DNA from: an uncultured Gammaproteobacteria bacterium
GTDB taxonomy: Bacteria > Pseudomonadota > Gammaproteobacteria > Competibacterales > JAHEDQ01
Direction: 5' to 3'
Assembly: GCA_963783675.1 (NCBI GenBank)
Contig: CAWAOU010000027.1
Location: forward strand, 13,221-77,220
DNA length: 64,000 nt
Shown: one piece after another, positions 33,606-63,627 of the stretch
How the letters are laid out: each line of letters opens with the position of its first letter
Position numbering within the stretch: the first letter of the stretch is position 1
The notes under the pieces: model-generated
What the model was told of the DNA's origin: nothing
The model's input: the letters and a program-made list of their open reading frames with translations, nothing else
Database searches by the model: none
Position numbers and translations under genes: made by a program

Positions 33606-33822
33606 CCCCCACCAGCGGATCGGACCTTATCTAAACGCCACGGTACGCCGATCGCGAGCGGAGCGGACAGCAAACTGCCGGACCCACCGATCAGCCGCGT
33701 ATTGAATCCAGGCAATATATCCAATAGCCATACGCTCATTTCTCATTATTCTTTTTTGATCTGATGCGACCGCTATACAGTGACTCATCGAAATCGGTCA
33801 GCCGGCGGGGGTGGTCCAGCGC

Positions 33823-35484
33823 ATGTACAACTACAACCAGGTGGACACTGCGCTGGTGGCTCAGCGGGTGGCCCAGTTTCGGGATCAGACCGCGCGCTTT
33901 CTGGACGGACGCCTCAGCGAAGAGGCGTTTCGCCCGCTGCGATTGATGAATGGCCTGTATCTCCAGCGCCACGCACCCATGCTCAGAGTCGCTATCCCAT
34001 ATGGTCTGTTGTCAGCCGCTCAGCTCCGCCGGCTGGCACTGATCGCACGTCGTTACGATCGCGGGTACGGACACTTCACCACCCGCCAGAACATCCAGTT
34101 CAACTGGGTTCGAGTCGCTGAAGTGCCGGACATACTCGCGTCACTGGCTGAGGTGGACATGCACGCCATCCAGACCAGCGGCAACTGCATCCGCAATGTA
34201 ACCGCCGACCATCTGGCGGGTGTGGCACCAGACGAGATCGAGGACCCGCGACCGCACTGCGAGCTGATACGCCAATGGTCGACACTGCACCCGGAGTTCT
34301 CGTTCCTGCCCCGAAAGTTCAAGATTGCCGTCACCGGCAGCCCCGGGGATCGAGCCGCCTCGCAGGTGCACGACATCGGACTGCACCTGGTGCGCGATTC
34401 AAATGGCAGGGTGGGATTCGAAGTGCTGGTCGGGGGCGGTCTCGGCCGGACCCCCGTAATCGGCAAAGTGCTGCGACCGTTTCTGGAAAAACGCGATCTG
34501 CTGTCCTACCTGGAATCTATCCTCCGGGTCTACAACCTGATGGGACGGCGGGACAATAAGTACAAGGCCCGGATAAAAATCCTGGTCAATGCCATGGGCA
34601 TCGACGCTTTCTCCCAGGCGGTTGAACGGGAATGGACCCTGACCCGCAGTCCGGAACTGGACCTGAGTGTGGCGAGGCTGGATCGATACCGGGCTCATTT
34701 CGCGCCACCCGCCTATGTAAAGGCCGGTGGCGACAGCGAGCAACATCGGGCATTGATCAACCGCAACCCCCTTTATCGCGCGTGGGCCCGGCAAAACACC
34801 CAGCGCCAAAGACAGCCGGGGTACCGCGCCGTCAGCCTGTCTCTCAAACCGCCGGGTGGCGCGCCCGGTGACTTAAACGCAGACCAGATGGACAGCGTCG
34901 CCGATCTGGCGGAGACCTATGCTTTCGGCGAAATCAGGGTCACCCACGAACAGAACCTGCTGCTGGCCAACGTGCACGAAAACGATCTGCCCGTCTTGTG
35001 GCGGGCTTTGAAAAGCCTGAACCTCGCCACCCCCAACGTGGGCACGCTGACCGACATGATCTGTTGCCCTGGCCTGGACTATTGCAGCCTGGCAAATGCC
35101 GGATCCATTGATGTGGCGGCGCAGATTCAGGCGCGCTTCGACGACTACGACCTGCTCTACGACCTGGGCGACATTCAAATCAACATCTCGGGATGCATGA
35201 ACGCCTGTGGACATCACCATGTAGGTCACATCGGGCTGCTCGGCGTCGATAAGAAGGGAGAGCAGTGGTACCAGATCACCCTGGGCGGGCAGTCCAGCGA
35301 CCAGGCCAGGCTCGGCAAGGTCCTGGGCCCATCGATACCCAAAGCCGAAGTCGCCGAAGTGATTGAAAACCTGCTCGAAGTCTACGTCGAACAGCGACGG
35401 GGAGACGAGCGCTTCGTCGACACCGTGCATCGGGTTGGCGTCACACCGTTTAAGGAGTCCATCTATGCCCTTGCTGAATCGTGA
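33823..35484 (+). CDS. cysI: assimilatory sulfite reductase hemoprotein-type (nitrite/sulfite reductase family)
   Basis: MYNYNQVD start as in Pseudomonas-type CysI. Two nitrite/sulfite reductase repeats. Siroheme/4Fe-4S cysteines (CCPGLDYC ... SGCMNACGHHH). The ORF track starts at GTG 33811. Confidence 0.85.
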   Translation: MYNYNQVDTALVAQRVAQFRDQTARFLDGRLSEEAFRPLRLMNGLYLQRHAPMLRVAIPYGLLSAAQLRRLALIARRYDRGYGHFTTRQNIQFNWVRVAEVPDILASLAEVDMHAIQTSGNCIRNVTADHLAGVAPDEIEDPRPHCELIRQWSTLHPEFSFLPRKFKIAVTGSPGDRAASQVHDIGLHLVRDSNGRVGFEVLVGGGLGRTPVIGKVLRPFLEKRDLLSYLESILRVYNLMGRRDNKYKARIKILVNAMGIDAFSQAVEREWTLTRSPELDLSVARLDRYRAHFAPPAYVKAGGDSEQHRALINRNPLYRAWARQNTQRQRQPGYRAVSLSLKPPGGAPGDLNADQMDSVADLAETYAFGEIRVTHEQNLLLANVHENDLPVLWRALKSLNLATPNVGTLTDMICCPGLDYCSLANAGSIDVAAQIQARFDDYDLLYDLGDIQINISGCMNACGHHHVGHIGLLGVDKKGEQWYQITLGGQSSDQARLGKVLGPSIPKAEVAEVIENLLEVYVEQRRGDERFVDTVHRVGVTPFKESIYALAES

Positions 35485-35989
35485 CGGTCATCTGGTCGCC
35501 AGTCCTTGGCGCCTCGCGTCGGAGCAGCCGGACGGGCCCCGTCCATACTCCGTGCTGACCCTAGAGCAGTGGCGCCTTCTGAAACACGTGTCTCCGGAGG
35601 TACTGCACCTGGGTCTGCGACTTGACGGCGATGCCGAGCCGGAACAAGCACTGCCTTGGCTGGATGCCAGCAAACTGGTGGAGATTCACTTCGCCAGTTT
35701 CATCGATGGCCGCGGGTTCAGCCTGGGGCGCAGCCTGCGAGCCCGATTCGGGTACAGCGGCACAATGCGGGCCTGTGGCGAGATCCTGCCGGACCAGCTC
35801 CAACTGCTGGCCCGTTGCGGTTTTGACCAATTCCTGCTGGAAGACACCGAGGCCGCCAACGATGGGCGGGCGGCACTTTCGGCTTTCGACGTCTGCTATC
35901 AACCCGGACTGAGGATCGCGAACGGGTTCGATGCACCTCAAAACTCGGGCAGTTCGACATCGGCAAACATTCGATCCACCGCCGCCTGA
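35465..35989 (+). CDS. DUF934 family protein (commonly coupled to cysI)
   Basis: ATG 35465 overlaps the cysI 3' end. IDGRGFSLGRSLRARFGYSG..RA.G.ILPDQL is typical of DUF934. Confidence 0.7.
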   Translation: MPLLNRDGHLVASPWRLASEQPDGPRPYSVLTLEQWRLLKHVSPEVLHLGLRLDGDAEPEQALPWLDASKLVEIHFASFIDGRGFSLGRSLRARFGYSGTMRACGEILPDQLQLLARCGFDQFLLEDTEAANDGRAALSAFDVCYQPGLRIANGFDAPQNSGSSTSANIRSTAA

Positions 35990-36912
35990 TCGGGTGCGTG
36001 TGCCGCCTGATCCACCGGTTTCAGTTTCAAGTGCGCGGCGAACAGGGATATGAAGTCATACATGTAGGCCCGCAGATAGGTACCCCGGCGAAAACCGATC
36101 TTGGTGGTGCTGGCCTTGAACAGATGTCCGGCATCGAGCTGCACCAAGTCCCCGTCGTGCTCGGGGTCATATGCCATACGCGCCAGAATGCCGACCCCCA
36201 GCCCGAGACGGACATAGGTCTTGATTACGTCGGAGTCCGCCGCCGTGAACACCACTCTGGGCTTTAAACCCTGGGCGTTGAACGCAATATCCAGTTGAGA
36301 ACGGCCGGTGAATCCGAATACATAGGTGACCAGCGGGTAGCGAGCCACCGCAGCCAGGTCCAGGTGCTCGACCCGGGCCAGGGGATGATCCGGCGGCACC
36401 ACCACGCAACGGTTCCAGCGGTAGCAGGGCAGCATCACCAGATCTTCGAACAGTTCCATTGCCTCGGTGGCGATGGCGAAGTCGACCTGCCCGGAAGCCG
36501 CCATCTCAGCGATCTGGGCGGGTGTCCCCTGTTGCATCTGCAGAGTTACATCGGGGTAGCGCTGGCGAAACGCCTGGACCACGGGAGGCAGGGCATAACG
36601 GGCCTGGGTGTGGGTTGTGGCGATACTTAAAGTGCCGCGATGTTCATCGCGGAATTCCGCCGCCAGGGCCTTGATGTTGCCCACCTCACCCATGATCGAT
36701 TCGGCCCTGGCAATGATCTGTCGGCCCGCCGGAGTGATATGGGTGAGCTGCTTACCGTTCCGATTGAACAGCAGTATGCCCAACTCCTCCTCCAGCAGTT
36801 TGAGCTGCTTGCTGACCCCGGGTTGAGATGTGTACAGGCTCTCGGCCGCAGCCGAGATGTTCAGGCCGTTGCGTGCGATTGCGATCAGATAGCGGAGTTG
36901 CTGGAGTTTCAC
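35938..36912 (-). CDS. cysB: LysR-family transcriptional regulator, CysB-like
   Basis: MKLQQLRYLIAIARNGLNISAAAESLYTSQPGVSKQLKLLEEELG is close to the canonical CysB/Cbl N-terminus; 324 aa. Confidence 0.85.
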   Translation of the reverse strand: MKLQQLRYLIAIARNGLNISAAAESLYTSQPGVSKQLKLLEEELGILLFNRNGKQLTHITPAGRQIIARAESIMGEVGNIKALAAEFRDEHRGTLSIATTHTQARYALPPVVQAFRQRYPDVTLQMQQGTPAQIAEMAASGQVDFAIATEAMELFEDLVMLPCYRWNRCVVVPPDHPLARVEHLDLAAVARYPLVTYVFGFTGRSQLDIAFNAQGLKPRVVFTAADSDVIKTYVRLGLGVGILARMAYDPEHDGDLVQLDAGHLFKASTTKIGFRRGTYLRAYMYDFISLFAAHLKLKPVDQAAHAPDQAAVDRMFADVELPEF

Positions 36913-37423
36913 ATTCGACTCCGGTGGGTCAACGGGAAGTTTCTTCCCATGTGCAGCATCTTCATGACCCGACTTGTTTTCAACAGCTATTCTTGACGAT
37001 ATCGACCCAACAATTCAGTCCTATCCATGGAACCCGACTGTGAGCCAATCCGGCCAAGACCCAAGCGCGGGCGTCGAGCCTGCCACAAAATAACAATATC
37101 GCATAAATATTTCCGATGATATTACCTTTGCGCATGGCAATATGCGGTCCAGCGCGCCCGCGCCCCGGAGTAAAAGTTCACCGGTTTCGGTGGGTGAACT
37201 CGAACTGGAAGCTTGATTTAATTAAACTGTCGTCTAACGTATTTAGAGTCTGAGTTCGGCCCCTTCGTCGGGCCTGCGGTATGGATGCTGCGGTGAACGG
37301 CGCGGGAAGCAAGGATTAAGAGTGAGCGTGATTCAGGCTGCTGTGACGGCTGAGGGTAGCGATCCGACTTAGAGATCCCACCCACCGGCCTAAGTCCTGA
37401 CAGCGGCCTTTCGGGGGGAAATC

Positions 37424-39762
37424 ATGCGCATTCTCGTGATGCTGCCGTTGCTGCTTTTCTGGGCACCGCTGATCGCGGCCCAATCCCACAATACCGTATC
37501 CGCTGAGTTGGCCGAGAGTAAGGGCTGCCTGTCCTGCCACGAGGGCATCGAGCGGTTTACCGACGGGCCCATGATGGACGCGATTGCGGCCATCGGATCA
37601 GCTCACAAAGATCCCGGTGGCTGCGTCGTCTGCCACGGTGGAAATCCCATTGCCACCGCAAAGGAGCAGGCGCATACCGGCGCACCGGATCTGCTGAAGC
37701 AAGGCGGCGGACCCTCCATGTTCTTCCCCGACCCGGGCAGTGTCTGGATCGCCGACAAGACCTGCGGCCAATGCCATGCAGGCTATGCCGACCGACTCAC
37801 TAAATCGCCTGATGAACACCGAGGCCGGCAAACTTCAGGGCAACCTGTGGTCCTGGGGCGTGATCGACACGCACAGTCGGTCTACGGCAACTACGACATG
37901 ACGATGAAGACGGTCTGACACCCGCGGTCGGTACCGAGGCCTACGAATCCTACATGGTGGCATTCATCGCCGCGCACCCGGAACAGATGCCGAGTCGAAT
38001 GGAGCAGGTTGCCGGAAGTCAACGTCGATGAAATCTCGGACCACCCTAACCTGGCCGGCATCACCTACTCGCGCCAGCAGTGCCAACGGTGCCACGTGGG
38101 CGTAACCGGGCGGGAGAAGCGGGGCGACTACCGCGGCACCGGCTGCTCGTCCTGCCACGTTCCCTACTCCAACGAGGGCCTCTACGAGGGCGGCGATCCC
38201 GACGATCGCAAAGATCAACCCGGCAAGCTGCTGGTCCACCGCATGCAGGCGACCCGCAAATCCAAGGTTCAGGTCGGCGACGTGACCATTACTCCGGTAT
38301 ACCGTCCGAGACCTGCAACTCCTGCCACAACCGCGGCAAGCGGATCGGCGTAAGCTACCAGGGCATCATGGAATTCCCCTACGGTCGCCCTATAACGCCA
38401 CCGGTGGCAAGCAGCCCAAGCTGCACACCAAGAACTATCTCTACATCAAGGACGACCTGCACCATCAGCAGGTGAGCCGGCCGGGCAACCCGGAAGGCGG
38501 AATGCTGTGCCAGGATTGCCACACCTCGATCGACATGCATGGCGACGGCAACCTGCCGGGCACCACGCTGGCGCAGGTCGAAATCGAGTGTGAGGACTGC
38601 CACGGCACCGTCGCGCAGTTGCCCTGGGATCTGCCGCTGGGTTACGGCGAAGAGCACGGCATGGACGCTTGCGGGCACGCCCGCGGGGTCTGGCCTCCAA
38701 CCGCCGAGCCTTCATGTTCGCGACCGAGTATCCGGCTGAGGACGGCTATCTGCTGACCGCCCGAGGCAACCCGTTCGGCAATGTGGTCGACAAGGTGACA
38801 AGGTGATCATGCACTCGGCCTCCGGTCTCGACTTCGAGGTGCCGGTGCTCAAGCAGCTCGCCGACGACGACACCTGGAAGTCACCCGACGCGAAGGTCGC
38901 GATGGGCCAGGTCGGCGCGCATATGGAAAGCATGGAATGCTATGCCTGCCATGCCGACTGGGCGCCGCAGTGCTACGGCTGCCACATCACCGTGGACTAT
39001 TCGGAAGGCAAGACCGACGTGGACTGGATCCACAACGCCAACGCCCGCACCGAAAACGGCCTCACCGCCGACAACGAGCTGGGCACCAACGGCCTGACCA
39101 GCGCGGGCAAGGTATCGGAGACCCGCTCCTACCTGCGTTGGGAAAGCCAATCCTCGGGATCAACGGTGAAGGCCGGGTCAGCCCGCTGATGCCAGGCTGC
39201 CAGGTGATCACCACGGTGATCGACAAGGACGGCAACACGGTGGCCGAGAACGAGACCTGGATGACGCCCGGAGCCGGGGACCAAGGGTCTGGACCACGCC
39301 GCGGTGCAGCCGCATACCGCGGGGCGCAAGGCGCGAAGCTGCGAGAGCTGCCATGACAACCCCAAAGCCCTGGGCTACGGGATCAGGGTGGCCGATTCAT
39401 GCAGGGCTATGACAAGGGCTTCGTGGTCGATCTGGAAACCGCAACCGGGCGAGACCATCCCCGGTCAATACGCAGGTCCAGTCGCAGCCGATCCCGTCGC
39501 TCGACCATGCGATCTTTGCCGGATCGTGACCGAGGACAACGTGCAACTGGTGACCGTGGGCTCGCATTGGCCGAACTGACCGGCCCGCTGCCGCAGGAGA
39601 TGCGGGACAAGATGGAACGCACCGGCCTGTGCATGGGTTGCCACCAGGAAATGACCGAACGAAGCCTTGTGGAGCAAAGTCAATCAGCCGGGCTGGGCCA
39701 CCAATGACGCCCACCGGGACGTGCTGAACAAGGCCCTCAAGGCCTATGCGGCCGAACAGTAA
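37424..39762 (+). pseudogene. multiheme c-type cytochrome (12 CxxCH motifs), disrupted by many frameshifts
   Basis: Signal peptide MRILVMLPLLLFWAPLIAAQ. CxxCH motifs CLSCH, CVVCH, CGQCH, CQRCH, CSSCH, CNSCH, CQDCH, CEDCH, CYACH, CYGCH, CESCH and CMGCH are spread over ORFs 37424 (f2), 38009 (f2), 38080 (f1), 38472 (f3), 38803 (f1), 38937 (f3), 39304 (f1) and 39399 (f3). Protein-like sequence continues when hopping frames. The final stop is at 39760-39762. Confidence 0.85.
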
Positions 39763-39783
39763 ACGGCGAAGGAGGACTGACAT

Positions 39784-40149
39784 ATGAAAGCCATCAGCCA
39801 ACTTTGCTGTGCCCTGGCCGCAGCGCTTGTTTTGTGTGTTCCGGCAGAGCAGGCGGCCGCTTACTCCGCCCAGGATCTGTACGAACCCTGTCACGAGGGC
39901 GATGCCGACTCGCGCTGGGGTGCGGCGGCCGAGGCGGAGTGCGAGCAGTACATACTTGGGTTCACCGATGCCTACCTGCTGCTCACCGACGGCGGCAAGG
40001 CCGACAACATCTGCCTGCCCGAGCAAAACCGCCTGGACGAAGTGCGCTGGGCCTTTATGCGCTGGTACCACCAGCACTTCGACGACCGGGCCCAACCTGC
40101 TGGCGAGGGGCTGCACAAAATGCTCAAAGCCGGGTTCGTCTGCGAATAG
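39784..40149 (+). CDS. small secreted cysteine-containing protein (Rap1a/Tai4-like motif, uncertain)
   Basis: Strong AAGGAGGA Shine-Dalgarno. Signal peptide ending AEQAAA. The DLYEPC...ECEQYILGFTDAY pattern is reminiscent of Rap1a/Tai4-type periplasmic proteins. Confidence 0.55.
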   Translation: MKAISQLCCALAAALVLCVPAEQAAAYSAQDLYEPCHEGDADSRWGAAAEAECEQYILGFTDAYLLLTDGGKADNICLPEQNRLDEVRWAFMRWYHQHFDDRAQPAGEGLHKMLKAGFVCE

Positions 40150-40176
40150 ACCGGCCCGATTTCGCCATCCGATCGA

Positions 40177-40205
40177 CCGCCGGCCAGTGTCCGGCGGTTT
40201 TTTTT
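40177..40205 (+). terminator. Rho-independent terminator
   Basis: ccgccgg-ccagtgt-ccggcgg stem-loop followed by a run of eight T. Confidence 0.8.
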
Positions 40206-40313
40206 GATACTTGCAAACTTCGCATCACCCCGTACCGCCTCACCCCGCCCATTTATTATATTAGAAAATCATAATATGATGAATAAACCACGCCCAACGG
40301 GTGAAGATGTGCC

Positions 40314-49254: not shown

Positions 49255-49817
49255 GAGTATAAGACGAACAAACGCCCTTTTCCGAAAGTTGATCGTGTAT
49301 CCCCAAGTCATCAAACAGTCGCCAAACCGCTTTTCAGTTTGGTGTCGGCCGTGATCGGCCCTTCTGGGCCGGCAGAAGCGGCCAAGATCGAGTAGTTCAG
49401 CCAATTTCTTAACGAATTCCCCGCATCGGGCCGAACGCGATCAAAGCCACAACGCTCAGCGTCGCAGTCGGGGGGTGTTACCGGGTAGCCCGGTTCAGTC
49501 GTCGAACCGTCCCGCCTGGGGCGGCGCCCGACACGGCGGCCGCCTCGTGGCTTGGGGCTCAACCGCTTTCGCATCCAGGTGGCTGAGGATCTTGTCGATG
49601 ACCTCCGGCTGCTCGATGCAGGCGATAATCCGCACCGCCCCACCGCAGGCCCGGCAGGTCTCAACGTCGATACCGAACACCCGCTTCAGACGCTGCGCCC
49701 AGGTCATTGAGGCGCGGCGTTCGGCCGGCGTCGCCTCCTCCCCATCCCCCGTCGCAGCACGCTGGCCTCCCCTGCCACGCTTGGCCGGTGTCACCCGCGC
49801 GCGGTATTTGCTGTTCG
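49255..49817 (-). mobile_element. IS91-family 3' (oriIS-proximal) fragment, copy 1 (563 bp)
   Basis: Near-identical to 59213-59775 and 62901-63463. Encodes only the last about 108 aa of the transposase (NSKYRARVTPAKR...). Ends exactly after an internal GTTC (ctgttcg) at 49817. Confidence 0.85.
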
Positions 49818-49975
49818 CAATCCTCGTCGGGAAGCCGCCATTCGTGATCGGTGCAGCAAAAGCCCGGAACAAGCCCGAAGTAATCATTCTATTTGCCTCA
49901 CTTCAACGGCCGATCCATAAACGGCCAACTCGAGGTGTAAAAGTGTGCCATGGGGAGCAAGCTTGGCTTTGCCAA

Positions 49976-58649: not shown

Positions 58650-59212
58650 GAAGGCGGTTGCTGCCAGAGCCGCACCTGACTATGCAATCAACTCGGCCTT
58701 GCTGAGGTGCCGAACCGATCTGTTCGCTCTGTCTCCGCTGGCATCCGAACGTTCACGAGGCGTGCCCGGGGCCTTGTTCGCGACGCGGACGCAAGCATCC
58801 GGGCGATCAACAGAGGGTTTGCCGGTGAATCTGGGAAAACCGAGGTCGGTCTGCCGGCGCCGCATCGATGAGAGCAGGCGGGCCTGACCGCGGTCGACGC
58901 GGCGAAGTCCCTGGTGTCACTTACGGTTGGGCTGCGTGTTCTGGCTCGCGGTACGTTCGATGCGGTGGGCTTGTTGGCAATAAAGAACAACATCCTGAGG
59001 CTGATCGGACATTAGAACGACGTTTGATGGCCCTGGTCCCGCGTGCAGTGGAATTGTGGGTGTATTCCCACCGCCCCGCTGTTGAGGCTACACAGTACGT
59101 ATGGCTGGTTTTCAGAGCCTCGTGATTCAGGGCTGTTCAGTGCCATAATCCATCTATGGAAGACCTCGGCATGGACGAGAACATGAACATCGCCTACGGT
59201 GCGGCCGTATCG

Positions 59213-60745
59213 GAGTATAAGACGAACAAACGCCCTTTTCCGAAAGTTGATCGTGTATCCCCAAGTCATCAAACAGTTGCCAAACCGCGTTTCAGTTTGG
59301 TGTCGGCCGTGATCGGCCCTTCTGGGCCGGCAGAAGCGGCCAAGATCGAGTAGTTCAGCCAATTTCTTAACGAATTCCCCGCATCGGGCCGAACGCGATC
59401 AAAGCCACAACGCTCAGCGTCGCAGTCGGGGGGTGTTACCGGGTAGCCCGGTTCAGTCGTCGAACCGTCCCGCCTGGGGCGGCGCCCGACACGGCGGCCG
59501 CCTCGTGGCTTGGGGCTCAACCGCTTTCGCATCCAGGTGGCTGAGGATCTTGTCGATGACCTCCGGCTGCTCGATGCAGGCGATAATCCGCACCGCCCCA
59601 CCGCAGGCCCGGCAGGTCTCAACGTCGATACCGAACACCCGCTTCAGACGCTGCGCCCAGGTCATTGAGGCGCGGCGTTCGGCCGGCGTCGCCTCCTCCC
59701 CATCCCCCGTCGCAGCACGCTGGCCTCCCCTGCCACGCTTGGCCGGTGTCACCCGCGCGCGGTATTTGCTGTTCGGCGCAAACACCCCGTGGAAACGGGT
59801 CAGATTGACTCTCGGTTTCGGCACCAAAGCGGCCAGCCGGGCAATGAAATCCAGCGGCTCGAACATCACATGCGTAGTACCGTCGCGGTACGGGGTCTTC
59901 AGCTGGTAACGAACGTTCCCATTCGCCGTGAGCGACAGGCGCTTTTCCGACACCGCCGGGCGGCTGATGTAGCGGCACAGCCGCTCCAGCTTCCCTCTTT
60001 CATCCGCTCTCGCCGCCACGCCCGCGTGCAGCGAGAAACCGGCCACCTTGCCCACCCCGTCATCGAACCGATCATCGCAGGCCGGCAGCGTCCGTAGCGT
60101 GAATACCTTGCGCCCCTGCTGCGGCCCGACAGCGATGCGGTAGGTGATCGACGAACCCAGGAGTTGATGCATAGGCCCGGCCTCGAAGTGGTCGCCGGCC
60201 AGATAGCAGTTCTCCGCATCGCGCTCCAGCAGCCCCTGCCGTTCGAGGTAGCGGCCGATACGCAGCGCCAGGGTCTGCGCCAGCCGGCTGAGTTCGGTGC
60301 TCGTCGGCGCCTTCACCCAGCGGAATCGGAGCGAGCCGTCCGAGCCCTCCACGTACACCCCATCGAGGAACAGCATGTGAAAGTGGATGTTCAGGTTCAG
60401 CGCGCTGCCGAAGCGCTGGATCAGCGTGACCGCGCCGCTCCGGGCCGTCTTGCAGGAAAAACCGGCCTTCTTGGTCAGGTGTGTGGCGATGCAACGGTAG
60501 ACGATGCCCAGCACCCGGCCCATAACAGCAGGGCGGCTGGCGAACAGGAAACGTAAGGGATACGGAACGCTCAACACCCACTGGCGCACCGGCTGCTCGG
60601 CAAACACCTCGTCCACCAGCAATGCCGCGCTCTCGGCCATGCGCCGGGCACCGCAGCTGGGACAAAAGCCCCGGCGTTTGCAACTGAACGCCACCCATTG
60701 ATCGCCATGGCAACTGTCGCAGCGCAGCACCACGTGCCCTGCAAA
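59213..60745 (-). mobile_element. IS91-family element, copy 2 (oriIS end intact, 5'/terIS side missing)
   Basis: Left boundary GAGTATAAGACGAAC is shared with copies 1 and 3. The right boundary is approximate, where the transposase frame merges with a truncated dehydrogenase gene. Confidence 0.8.
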
Positions 60746-62900: not shown

Positions 62901-63627
62901 GAGTATAAGACGAACAAACGCCCTTTTCCGAAAGTTGATCGTGTATCCCCAAGTCATCAAACAGTCGCCAAACCGCTTTTCAGTTTGGTGTCGGCCGTGA
63001 TCGGCCCTTCTGGGCCGGCAGAAGCGGCCAAGATCGAGTAGTTCAGCCAATTTCTTAACGAATTCCCCGCATCGGGCCGAACGCGATCAAAGCCGCAACG
63101 CTCAGCGTCGCAGTCGGGGGGTGTTACCGGGTAGCCCGGTTCAGTCGTCGAACCGTCCCGCCTGGGGCGGCGCCCGACACGGCGGCCGCCTCGTGGCTTG
63201 GGGCTCAACCGCTTTCGCATCCAGGTGGCTGAGGATCTTGTCGATGACCTCCGGCTGCTCGATGCAGGCGATAATCCGCACCGCCCCACCGCAGGCCCGG
63301 CAGGTCTCAACGTCGATACCGAACACCCGCTTCAGACGCTGCGCCCAGGTCATTGAGGCGCGGCGTTCGGCCGGCGTCGCCTCCTCCCCATCCCCCGTCG
63401 CAGCACGCTGGCCTCCCCTGCCACGCTTGGCCGGTGTCACCCGCGCGCGGGATTTGCTGTTCGGCGCAAACACCCCGTGGAAACGGGTCAGATTGACTCT
63501 CGGTCTGGGCACCAGGGCCGCCAGCCGGGCAATGAAATCGAGGGGTTCAAAGATGACGTGCGTCGTACCGTCGCGGTACGGGGTCTTCAGCTGGTAACGA
63601 ACGTTCCCATTCGCGGTGAGCGACAGG
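62901..63627 (-). mobile_element. IS91-family 3' fragment, copy 3 (727 bp, mosaic)
   Basis: 62901-63450 is near-identical to copies 1 and 2. 63451-63627 aligns with copy 2 with about 15 substitutions, mostly silent in the transposase frame. Homology ends at 63627. Confidence 0.8.

What the first reader, a model, noticed from the sequence alone, without database searches (positions are those of the whole stretch)
37424..39762. A 12-heme cytochrome gene shattered by a dozen or so frameshifts while every other gene in the core region (1-48.1 kb) reads through
Seen directly: one continuous protein-like reading path (signal peptide, 12 CxxCH motifs, final stop at 39760) can only be followed by switching frame repeatedly. 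The approximate switch points are 37806, 37880, 37898, 38003, 38290, 38388, 38660-38700, 38790-38805, 39140, 39275, 39385, 39455, 39570 and 39655. I saw no obvious internal nonsense codons along the reconstructed path, and the conceptual protein still looks well formed. Ordinary decay would also leave substitutions, stops and deletions. This pattern points to very recent or indel-specific decay, local sequencing/assembly error confined to this 2.3 kb, or a collapsed paralogue. The gene sits divergent from cysB, next to cysI, and is followed by an intact co-oriented small secreted protein gene and a strong terminator. It was therefore probably a periplasmic sulfur-compound redox enzyme operon, though its function is inference only.
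Basis: partly seen in the sequence, partly recalled or inferred. Interest (0 to 1): 0.8.

Follow-up and report, generated by a model that had tools for sequence, protein, structure and literature searches.

The report
Chimeric, frameshifted cytochrome gene: assembly artefact
The shattered 12-heme cytochrome gene is really in the sequence, but it is a base-by-base blend of the organism's own intact gene and a related gene from a different bacterial group, with the frameshifts sitting at the badly joined seams, so it is most likely a consensus or assembly error and not a decaying gene.

Summary
Window 37424-39762 (+) carries 12 CxxCH motifs spread over three frames.

The decay reading does not hold. 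A conspecific MAG contig (L003/L093) is collinear with window 27.4-55.0 kb. It has 61 SNPs and no coding indels in the flanks, and it carries the gene intact (P0081, 775 aa, the same protein on 14 contigs).

All the extra divergence (269 substitutions) and all 16 frameshifts lie in one block, about 37.72-39.66 kb. In that block, 245 of the 269 differences from the conspecific allele equal the base found in Rhodobacteraceae-type homologues (L079, L009, L070, L040). The window lies almost on the line between the two parents: 86.0% identity to one, 82.6% to the other, and 72.0% between the parents.

Allele switches occur every few bases. At least nine frameshift sites keep 1-2 nt of both alleles. 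The poorly conserved ends of the gene are purely the resident allele. 83 of 85 homologous loci are uninterrupted.

Best explanation (about 0.8): a collapsed or chimeric consensus of two alleles in a metagenome-derived assembly. The underlying gene is an ordinary member of a widespread, uncharacterised family of ExtM-like 12-heme cytochromes paired with a Rap1a-like gene.

The parts
37424..39762 (+). 12-heme c-type cytochrome gene (ExtM-like family). In this window it is broken by 16 net frame switches.
   Evidence: 12 CxxCH over three frames. Frameshift-aware alignments give 16 switches and 0 stops. The intact conspecific orthologue is P0081, 775 aa.
37424..37723 (+). 5' end of the gene (signal peptide, hemes 1-2). 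Pure resident allele, in frame.
   Evidence: The first 100 aa are identical to P0081. All 133 informative sites equal L003 and none equals L079. Identity between the two parental types here is only 37-65%.
37724..39660 (+). Hybrid block: a fine-grained mosaic of the resident (L003-type) allele and a Rhodobacteraceae-type (L079/L009-like) allele. It holds all 16 frameshifts and 269 substitutions.
   Evidence: Mismatch and gap profile against L003. Informative sites split 289 A to 224 B. 224 of 269 differences equal L079 and 245 of 269 equal one of four Rhodobacteraceae-type loci. Identities are 86.0%, 82.6% and 72.0%. The copying model finds segments 97-100% identical to L079 alternating with L003.
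37808..37808 (+). Frameshift 1 (+1). TC[G][C]CTG keeps two alternative third-position bases of one Ser codon.
   Evidence: Five-way nucleotide alignment.
38282..38287 (+). Frameshift 5 (+2). A B-type GACGTGACC is joined to an A-type (C)ATTACTCC, two bases out of register.
38786..38801 (+). Frameshift 8 (-1). An 8-nt tandem duplication, GACAAGGT GACAAGGT, replaces three codons.
   Evidence: Read directly from the alignment.
39447..39450 (+). Frameshift 12 (+1). GG[G][C]GAG keeps both the A and the B third-position bases of one Gly codon.
39500..39506 (+). Frameshift 14 (+2). B-type ...GACCA, then A-type TG, then B-type CGATC. It is followed by a hybrid codon TGC (Cys), made of A's T and B's GC, where 119 of 120 relatives have Ser.
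39568..39575 (+). Frameshift 15 (+2). The B codon CCG is followed by the last two bases (AA) of the A codon GAA.
   Evidence: A metagenome scan allowing 0-2 inserted bases at this site found only the un-shifted form.
39654..39658 (+). Frameshift 16 (+1). The B codon ACC is followed by the last base (G) of the A codon GCG. This is the 3' edge of the hybrid block.
39661..39762 (+). 3' end of the gene. Resident allele, in frame, with TAA stop.
   Evidence: The last ~34 aa are identical to P0081. All 34 informative sites from 39658 to 39761 are A-type.
39784..40149 (+). Intact co-oriented gene for a small secreted Rap1a-like protein (121 aa), the conserved partner of the cytochrome.
   Evidence: PF18602, 51 bits against a cutoff of 27.7. 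The same 121-aa product is on 17 contigs. A homologue follows the cytochrome in 74 of 79 loci.
40175..40209 (+). Terminator-like hairpin (9 pairs, 7 of them G-C) followed by a T run, ending the two-gene unit.
35938..36912 (-). Divergently oriented cysB (LysR-type regulator), intact.
   Evidence: NF009326 CysB, 531.9 bits against a cutoff of 436.
33811..35989 (+). Sulfite/nitrite-reductase-type hemoprotein gene (557 aa ORF) and an overlapping DUF934 gene. Both are uninterrupted ORFs here.
   Evidence: NirA/CysI-type hits, all below the equivalog cutoffs. PF06073 DUF934.

Best explanation
The window's 37.72-39.66 kb block is not a sequence that exists in a cell. It is a per-column consensus built from two kinds of reads or contigs.

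- One kind is the organism's own, intact 12-heme cytochrome allele (P0081 type).
- The other is a homologous allele about 72% identical to it, of the type found in Rhodobacteraceae (L079/L009-like). It came from another community member, a co-assembled strain or a paralogue.

The foreign reads can align only across the conserved core of the gene. The poorly conserved gene ends and everything outside the gene therefore stay clean.

Inside the core, the majority vote flips between the alleles every few bases. Where the two alignments place gaps differently, the consensus keeps one or two bases of both alleles or of neither. That gives 16 net frameshifts.

Shown: the hybrid composition, its boundaries and the anatomy of the joins. 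Inferred: that the mixing happened in silico, during assembly or polishing, and not in vivo.

The real gene most probably encodes an intact secreted multiheme electron-transfer protein that works with the downstream Rap1a-like protein.
For: 1. A conspecific contig (GCA_942492415.1) is collinear over 27.4-55.0 kb. It has 61 SNPs and no coding indels in the flanks, but about 190 blastn mismatches and 54 of the 56 gap openings fall within 37.5-39.7 kb.
2. That contig and 13 others encode the identical intact 775-aa protein.
3. In the block, id(win,L003) is 86.0%, id(win,L079) is 82.6% and id(L003,L079) is 72.0%, so the window sits on the path between the two. 224 of 269 differences equal L079, and 245 of 269 equal one of four Rhodobacteraceae-type loci. 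Against L009, only 18 sites differ where both parents agree.
4. There are 179 A/B switches in 1.94 kb, including isolated B bases inside A-type stretches, although the A parent is otherwise about 99.7% identical to the window. Segments 97-100% identical to L079 alternate with L003 segments.
5. At least nine frameshifts retain bases of both alleles at a variant position: 37808, 38011, 38285, 39447, 39472, 39503, 39571, 39657, and 38789 as an 8-nt duplication. Others drop a base at a variant position.
6. The gene ends, where the parents are only 37-65% identical, are 100% A-type.
7. There are no in-path stops, all 12 heme motifs are intact, and differences are enriched at third codon positions (62/50/140). 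The substitutions are therefore borrowed from functional alleles and are not random decay.
8. 83 of 85 homologous loci are a single uninterrupted HSP.
9. Identical flanking proteins sit on a 609,933-bp contig, while short-read contigs of this species reach 78 kb at most. This suggests a long-read or hybrid metagenome assembly as the source.
10. A B-type allele occurs in a JGI metagenome numbered close to the one that carries the A allele (Ga0316201 and Ga0316196).
Against: - No reads are available, so the in-silico origin is inferred, not observed.
- The exact second parent was not found. The best donors are 91-100% identical per segment, and 24 of 269 differences are unexplained.
- Standard pipelines should not recruit reads that are 72% identical when the donor genome is also in the reference. 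The artefact therefore needs a particular practice, for example polishing a bin alone with all community reads, or correcting noisy long reads.
- No other conserved gene in the 27.6 kb that can be compared shows the same effect.
- The source assembly and its sequencing technology are unknown.
Confidence: 0.8

Rival explanations
1. This is a genuine in-vivo mosaic pseudogene. The resident gene recombined patchwise with homeologous DNA from an alphaproteobacterial-type allele, taken up from outside or present as a second copy in the same genome. Error-prone or out-of-register joins, or later mutations, left it frameshifted.
For: The mosaic composition is real. The family looks horizontally mobile, with 70-79% aa identity between Gammaproteobacteria and Rhodobacteraceae. 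Mosaic genes made by transformation are known in other bacteria (own knowledge).
Against: - Homologous recombination joins sequences in register and does not leave 1-2 nt of both alleles at a junction.
- About 180 allele switches in 1.9 kb between 72%-identical partners is far denser than natural conversion tracts.
- Isolated single B bases lie inside A-type stretches.
- There are no nonsense or private substitutions, despite 16 or more indels.
- The broken form is not on record elsewhere, while the intact allele is on 14 contigs.
Confidence: 0.1
2. This is ordinary pseudogene decay, or indel-biased decay, of the resident gene in this strain.
For: There are many frameshifts in one gene while its neighbours are intact.
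Against: - The block is 14% diverged from the conspecific allele while the flanks are 0.3% diverged. Neutral decay cannot outrun neutral sites in the flanks by more than 10-fold.
- 91% of the differences copy another lineage's allele.
- Differences are enriched at third codon positions, there are no stops, and all 36 Cys/His heme-motif residues are intact.
- The indels are not concentrated in homopolymers.
Confidence: 0.03
3. This is random read error in a locally low-coverage or unpolished stretch, for example a gap filled by a single noisy long read, with no second allele involved.
For: Errors are confined to about 2 kb. Other low-coverage long-read contigs show this gene in pieces, for example L097 ('2.71x', five fragments) and L001 (one frameshift).
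Against: Random errors would not reproduce another lineage's bases at 245 of 269 sites. They would not prefer third codon positions or avoid stops and heme motifs. The ratio of substitutions to indels (about 269 to about 20) is unlike raw long-read error.
Confidence: 0.04
4. The frameshifts are functional recoding (programmed ribosomal frameshifting or transcriptional slippage), so a full-length protein is still made.
For: A clean stop-free path exists and all heme motifs are preserved.
Against: - 16 shifts of both signs share no slippery motif.
- None is conserved: 83 of 85 homologous loci and all conspecific contigs read straight through.
Confidence: 0.01

Closest known systems
Inter-genome chimeric or collapsed consensus in metagenome assemblies (interspecies misassembly at conserved genes; mis-polishing by cross-mapped reads)
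   Same: It is confined to the stretch where two genomes are similar enough to co-align. The flanks are clean. The consensus flips between haplotypes. Indels appear where the two alignments disagree. Interspecies misassembly is a recognised problem in metagenome assembly (PMC8682757, abstract, seen). The rest of this comparison rests on my own knowledge.
   Different: It is usually described for rRNA operons, mobile elements or strain-level variants. Here the partners are only 72% identical protein-coding alleles from different bacterial classes, and the blend is unusually even (289 to 224). The pipeline that produced it is unknown.
ExtM (GSU2935), the 12-heme c-type cytochrome of the Geobacter sulfurreducens extHIJKLMNOPQS cluster (NCBIfam NF040943; PMC5877670)
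   Same: Both have twelve CxxCH motifs. The real orthologue P0081 matches the ExtM model over residues 196-651 (E 1.6e-73). ExtM is described as a 12-heme cytochrome found in the periplasm and membranes.
   Different: The score of 248 bits is far below the equivalog cutoff of 800. P0081 is 775 aa, against a 599-position model. No ext-cluster neighbours are present (no porin, Rieske protein or cytochrome b). The conserved partner here is a Rap1a-like protein. The hosts are mostly marine Alpha- and Gammaproteobacteria.
MtrC/OmcA/MtrF outer-membrane decaheme cytochromes
   Same: The Pfam MtrC/MtrF domain II/IV model matches residues 216-395 above its threshold (48.7 against 30).
   Different: The OmcA/MtrC family model TIGR03507 scores 21.8 against a cutoff of 209. 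The protein has 12 hemes, not 10. No MtrAB-type partners are adjacent. No solved structure matches by sequence.
Mosaic genes made by natural transformation (for example penicillin-binding protein genes of Streptococcus and Neisseria; own knowledge)
   Same: Blocks of foreign allele sit inside a resident gene with identical flanks.
   Different: Natural mosaics are in frame, have tracts of tens to thousands of bases, and involve donors that are usually less than 25% diverged. Here switches occur every few bases and the junctions are out of register.

Membership tests
Chimeric/collapsed consensus artefact | The anomaly is confined to a stretch homologous between two sources, with clean flanks. 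| tested here: met
   All excess mismatches and all frameshifts lie within 37.72-39.66 kb. The flanks have 61 SNPs and 2 indels outside annotated coding sequence in about 25.7 kb. The poorly conserved gene ends are pure resident allele.
Chimeric/collapsed consensus artefact | Nearly every difference from parent A is the state of parent B, with almost no private changes. | tested here: met
   224 of 269 differences equal L079, and 245 of 269 equal one of four related loci. The distances are additive along the A-B path. Only 18 sites differ where L003 and L009 agree.
Chimeric/collapsed consensus artefact | Joins are out of register and carry bases of both parents. | tested here: met
   At least nine of the 16 sites show this, for example CCG+AA at 39571, GG[G][C] at 39447 and ACC+G at 39657.
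Chimeric/collapsed consensus artefact | The read pile-up shows two haplotypes, and no single read carries the hybrid. | not testable with these tools
   No reads are available. The source assembly was not retrievable.
Pseudogene by in-vivo decay | Disruptions are accompanied by random, lineage-private substitutions, including nonsense changes and loss of essential residues. | tested here: not met
   There are 0 in-path stops. All 12 CxxCH motifs are intact. Codon-position differences are 62/50/140. 91% of the differences are copied from another allele.
Pseudogene by in-vivo decay | The same lesions are reproducible in independent samples of the lineage. | tested here: not met
   The 164-aa broken ORF is not on record. 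The junction scan found only un-shifted alleles. 14 conspecific contigs carry the intact gene.
Programmed frameshifting / recoding | Shift sites are conserved in homologues and have a slippery motif. | tested here: not met
   83 of 85 loci are uninterrupted. The contexts of the 16 sites share no motif.
ExtM (NF040943 equivalog) | The whole-protein score reaches the curated cutoff (800 bits). | tested here: not met
   P0081 scores 248 bits.
ExtM (NF040943 equivalog) | Twelve heme-binding motifs. | tested here: met
   There are 12 CxxCH motifs, all invariant across 31 family members. ExtM is a 12-heme protein (PMC5877670).
ExtM (NF040943 equivalog) | The gene lies in an ext-type cluster (porin ExtI, ExtKL, ExtN, Rieske ExtO, cytochrome b ExtP). 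| tested here: not met
   The neighbours are cysB, the Rap1a-like gene and a hydrolase.
OmcA/MtrC decaheme family (TIGR03507) | The family model score reaches its cutoff (209 bits). | tested here: not met
   The score is 21.8 bits. Only the domain-level PF22113 hit passes, at 48.7 against 30.

The most novel reading that the evidence does not exclude
The hybrid is real DNA. In this reading, a gammaproteobacterial cytochrome gene was overwritten in vivo, patch by patch, by an alphaproteobacterial-type allele about 28% diverged. The process would leave out-of-register joins, for example microhomology-mediated template switching between two homeologous copies during repair. The gene would have been destroyed in a single event that produces indels and borrowed substitutions but no random ones.
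Probability: 0.08. Interest if true: 0.65.

Novelty: not a real feature. Interest (0 to 1): 0.12.

Why it matters
This matters mainly as a caution. A gene that looks like spectacular indel-only decay, or heavy recoding, turns out to be a two-allele consensus blend. It would be annotated as a pseudogene and could mislead analyses of gene loss, selection or recombination in this lineage.

The diagnostic used here can be reused:
- Compare the region with a conspecific contig.
- Ask whether the differences are private or borrowed from another allele.
- Inspect the junctions.

The biology is ordinary. The organism almost certainly has an intact gene from a widespread but uncharacterised two-gene module: an ExtM-like 12-heme cytochrome and a Rap1a-like periplasmic protein. 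That module, conserved in 74 of 79 loci across several phyla, is more worth studying than the breakage.

Tried and rejected
- **First protein search with the 158-aa N-terminus.** It returned only hits of 276 aa or less, many of them frameshifted. This briefly suggested a family-wide interruption (recoding or selenocysteine). I rejected that idea because the full-length query found 2994 relatives of about 780 aa, and the short hits came from short or low-coverage contigs such as L097 at '2.71x'.
- **L002 in-frame stop.** It is TAG at an invariant Trp codon, not a conserved recoding site.
- **Plasmid collection megablast.** No match.
- **PDB sequence search.** Nothing significant.
- **AlphaFold2 model of P0081 from 31 sequences.** Mean pLDDT was 37, so I did not attempt a fold search.
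- **Finding the source assembly.** The broken 164-aa ORF and the 751-aa patatin/Omp85 protein are not on record. Identical flanking proteins point to a 609,933-bp contig that the tools did not return.
- **Genome-contig scan.** Neither the window's genome nor its species was found. L086, reported at '99%', is a different species, 86-89% identical at the nucleotide level.
- **Majority-base test.** The window moves towards the family consensus, but this was only modestly different from real homologues, so I gave it little weight. The two-parent test discriminates better.
- **Runs test.** The window gives z = -6.6, but real homologues also give -1.9 to -4.2. This is supportive only.
- **tRNA scan of the window.** None found.
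Full report
**1. The observation**

ORF listing and three-frame translation of window 37300-39900 show no ORF longer than 164 aa on the + strand. There are twelve CxxCH motifs, distributed 5/4/3 over the three frames.

I wrote a protein-to-DNA dynamic-programming aligner that allows frame switches. It gives the same result with each of three references: 16 frame switches, no stop codon on the path, start at ATG 37424 and stop at 39760-39762. The references were:
- a homologue reconstructed from L001 (75.7% aa identity);
- the conspecific protein P0081 (88.8% over aligned codons);
- a 120-sequence family profile at frameshift penalties 7-12.

Two more are found, at 39472 and about 39505. Other large ORFs across the window are uninterrupted.

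**2. The family is normally intact**

A search with the 158-aa N-terminus returned only short proteins, many of them frameshifted. This briefly suggested a family-wide interruption.

The full-length conceptual protein then retrieved 2994 relatives. The top 120 are about 765-842 aa. A scan of one genome per species gave 80 loci. Of the 85 loci then in hand that matched P0081, 83 carry the gene as a single uninterrupted tblastn match; L086 and L001 are split.

The short hits come from short or low-coverage contigs. L097, named '2.71x', has the gene in five pieces. L001 has one frameshift.

**3. Comparison with a conspecific genome**

The best relative, P0081 (775 aa), is encoded identically on 14 contigs from NCBI, ENA and JGI.

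One of these is a 78-kb MAG contig (GCA_942492415.1, loci L003 and L093). It is collinear with window 27426-55010. Outside the cytochrome gene there are 61 scattered SNPs (about 0.3%). There are only two indels, both outside annotated coding sequence: 37156 lies between cysB and the cytochrome gene, and 49470 is in a G run.

Between about 37.5 and 39.7 kb the blastn alignment holds about 190 mismatches and 54 of its 56 gap openings. The first 100 aa and the last ~34 aa of the gene are identical to P0081.

The shattered gene is therefore also a hyper-divergent block with sharp edges, inside an otherwise near-identical genome.

**4. Where the substitutions come from**

Codon-position counts of 62/50/140, zero stops and twelve intact heme motifs show that the differences are not random.

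In a nucleotide alignment with other homologues, 224 of the 250 sites that differ from L003 are matched by one of three other loci.

*Against L009, over the whole gene.* Where L003 and L009 differ, the window equals L003 at 429 sites, L009 at 206 and neither at 26. Only 18 sites differ from both when the two agree.

*Against L079, in the block (1921 columns).* L079 is a Rhodobacteraceae MAG, UBA9292.
- id(window, L003) = 86.0%, id(window, L079) = 82.6% and id(L003, L079) = 72.0%.
- 224 of 269 differences equal L079. 245 of 269 equal one of L079, L009, L070 or L040.

The window has almost no branch of its own and lies on the line between two alleles. It is a hybrid.

A copying-model segmentation finds stretches 97-100% identical to L079 (37824-37894, 38517-38619, 38794-38863) alternating with L003-type stretches.

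The mixture is also very fine-grained. There are about 179 switches among 513 informative sites. Single B-type bases sit inside A-type stretches, even though the A parent is otherwise about 99.7% identical to the window.

The first 300 nt of the gene, where the two parental types are only 37-65% identical, are purely A-type. The last ~100 nt are also purely A-type.

**5. Anatomy of the frameshifts**

| Site | Sequence in the window | Reading |
|---|---|---|
| 37808 | TC[G][C]CTG | Two alternative third-position bases of one Ser codon are both kept |
| 38011 | GTT+G+CCG | First base of A's GAG, then B's CCG |
| 38285 | B-type GACGTGACC joined to A-type (C)ATTACTCC | Two bases out of register |
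| 39447 | GG[G][C]GAG | Both the A and B third-position bases of one Gly codon are kept |
| 39472 | CAA T+ACG | A's T, then B's ACG |
| 39503 | ...CCA+TG+CGATC | A-type TG inserted between B-type bases |
| 39571 | CCG+AA | B's codon, then the tail of A's GAA |
| 39657 | ACC+G | B's codon, then the tail of A's GCG |
| 38789 | GACAAGGT GACAAGGT | 8-nt tandem duplication replaces three codons |

- The remaining sites lose one base at a position where the alleles differ, for example 39145 (GAA A-G CC).
- A hybrid codon TGC (Cys), made of A's T and B's GC, replaces a Ser found in 119 of 120 relatives.
- Short compensating indel pairs give 'DDR' and 'NRR', residues never seen at those positions in the family.

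These are the marks of merging two misaligned pile-ups. They are not the marks of polymerase slippage, because the sites are not homopolymer-biased. They are not the marks of homologous recombination either, because that joins sequences in register.

**6. Independent occurrences**

- The broken 164-aa ORF is not on record among 153 billion gene positions.
- I scanned JGI metagenomes for the 39571 junction, allowing 0-2 inserted bases. Only two un-shifted, B-type alleles were found (L091 and L092).
- L092 comes from Ga0316201. The A allele, L008, comes from Ga0316196. The close numbering hints that both allele types occur in related samples. This is inference only.
- Exact copies of three flanking window proteins lie on a 609,933-bp contig that the tools did not return. 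Short-read contigs of this species reach 78 kb at most, which suggests a long-read or hybrid metagenome assembly as the source. This is also inference.

**7. Interpretation**

The best explanation (about 0.8) is a collapsed or chimeric consensus.
- Reads or contigs of a second, 72%-identical allele were co-aligned with the resident allele across the conserved core of the gene.
- The consensus was then called column by column.
- The second allele could come from a Rhodobacteraceae-like community member, from a co-assembled strain carrying a transferred allele, or from a paralogue.

Rival explanations:
- A genuine in-vivo mosaic pseudogene (about 0.1).
- Random error in a low-coverage patch (about 0.04).
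- Ordinary decay (about 0.03).
- Recoding (about 0.01).

The first rival is disfavoured by the out-of-register joins, the density of switches and the absence of any private or nonsense change. Only reads can exclude it.

**8. The underlying gene**

P0081 has 12 invariant CxxCH motifs and a Sec-type signal peptide (read from the sequence).
- It shows distant but clear similarity to the Geobacter 12-heme cytochrome ExtM: NF040943, 248 bits, far below the cutoff of 800 (ExtM is described in PMC5877670).
- It has an MtrC/MtrF domain II/IV hit above the Pfam threshold.
- No solved structure matches by sequence.
- The AlphaFold2 model was too poor to use, with pLDDT 37.

A Rap1a-like gene (PF18602) follows the cytochrome in 74 of 79 loci, and the pair ends with a strong terminator.

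CysB is confirmed, and a sulfite/nitrite-reductase-type gene and a DUF934 gene lie upstream. This neighbourhood is not seen in the three other lineages whose gene neighbourhoods I looked at, so a role in sulfur metabolism is only a weak inference.

The most that can be said is that the module encodes a secreted multiheme electron-transfer protein with a small periplasmic partner. It is widespread in marine Alpha- and Gammaproteobacteria and in some Deinococcota.

**9. Verdict**

The feature is real in the file, but it is most probably not real in the organism. Interest is low (0.12). Its value is as a diagnosed artefact and as a pointer to an uncharacterised cytochrome module.

Noticed in passing
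window 49255-49820, 59209-59775, 62901-63463: A repeat of about 565 bp occurs three times in direct orientation at 99% or higher identity. One copy is also present in the conspecific MAG contig (L093 13646-14211), where it overlaps a 130-aa ORF on the minus strand. It may be part of a mobile or repeated element.
   Followed up: partly
L002 6430-6432 (Deinococcota bacterium DY0809b, CP179936.1): In a complete genome, the orthologous 12-heme gene has an in-frame TAG exactly at an invariant Trp codon (TGG; W144 of P0081). This splits the gene into 143-aa and 610-aa calls. It is either a real nonsense mutation or a base error. The gene lies among ccm cytochrome-maturation genes.
   Followed up: partly
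window 39784-40149, and L011-L090 downstream of the cytochrome: A small secreted Rap1a-like (PF18602) gene follows the 12-heme cytochrome on the same strand, within 600 nt, in 74 of 79 loci from several phyla. This is a conserved two-gene module of unknown function. Rap1a is otherwise known as a type VI immunity-protein fold.
   Followed up: partly
window 33811-35989; L003-L007 around 6.4-8.6 kb: Gene calls for the sulfite-reductase-type gene and the DUF934 gene differ among conspecific contigs: 553 + 174 aa in L003, one fused 721-aa call in L004, and 669 aa in L005-L007. The window has 11 SNPs in 35.0-35.5 kb, the densest cluster in the flanks. This may reflect real variation or small errors at the junction of the two genes.
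   Followed up: no
family-wide: Cytochrome orthologues from Gammaproteobacteria (Competibacteraceae-like, Woeseia, Beggiatoa-like) and from Alphaproteobacteria (Rhodobacteraceae, Rhodospirillales, Kiloniellales) share 70-79% aa identity. This is unusually high across classes and suggests horizontal spread of the module.
   Followed up: no
window 37156 and 49470: These are the only indels against the conspecific contig outside the cytochrome gene. One is a 2-nt CT difference in the cysB-cytochrome intergenic region. The other is a 1-nt difference in a G run inside the first repeat copy.
   Followed up: no
P0027, P0035, P0053: Some database proteins fuse the N-terminus of this cytochrome directly to the C-terminus of the Rap1a-like protein (P0027, P0035) or to a later part of the cytochrome (P0053). 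This implies internal deletions or misassemblies of the module in other metagenome assemblies.
   Followed up: no
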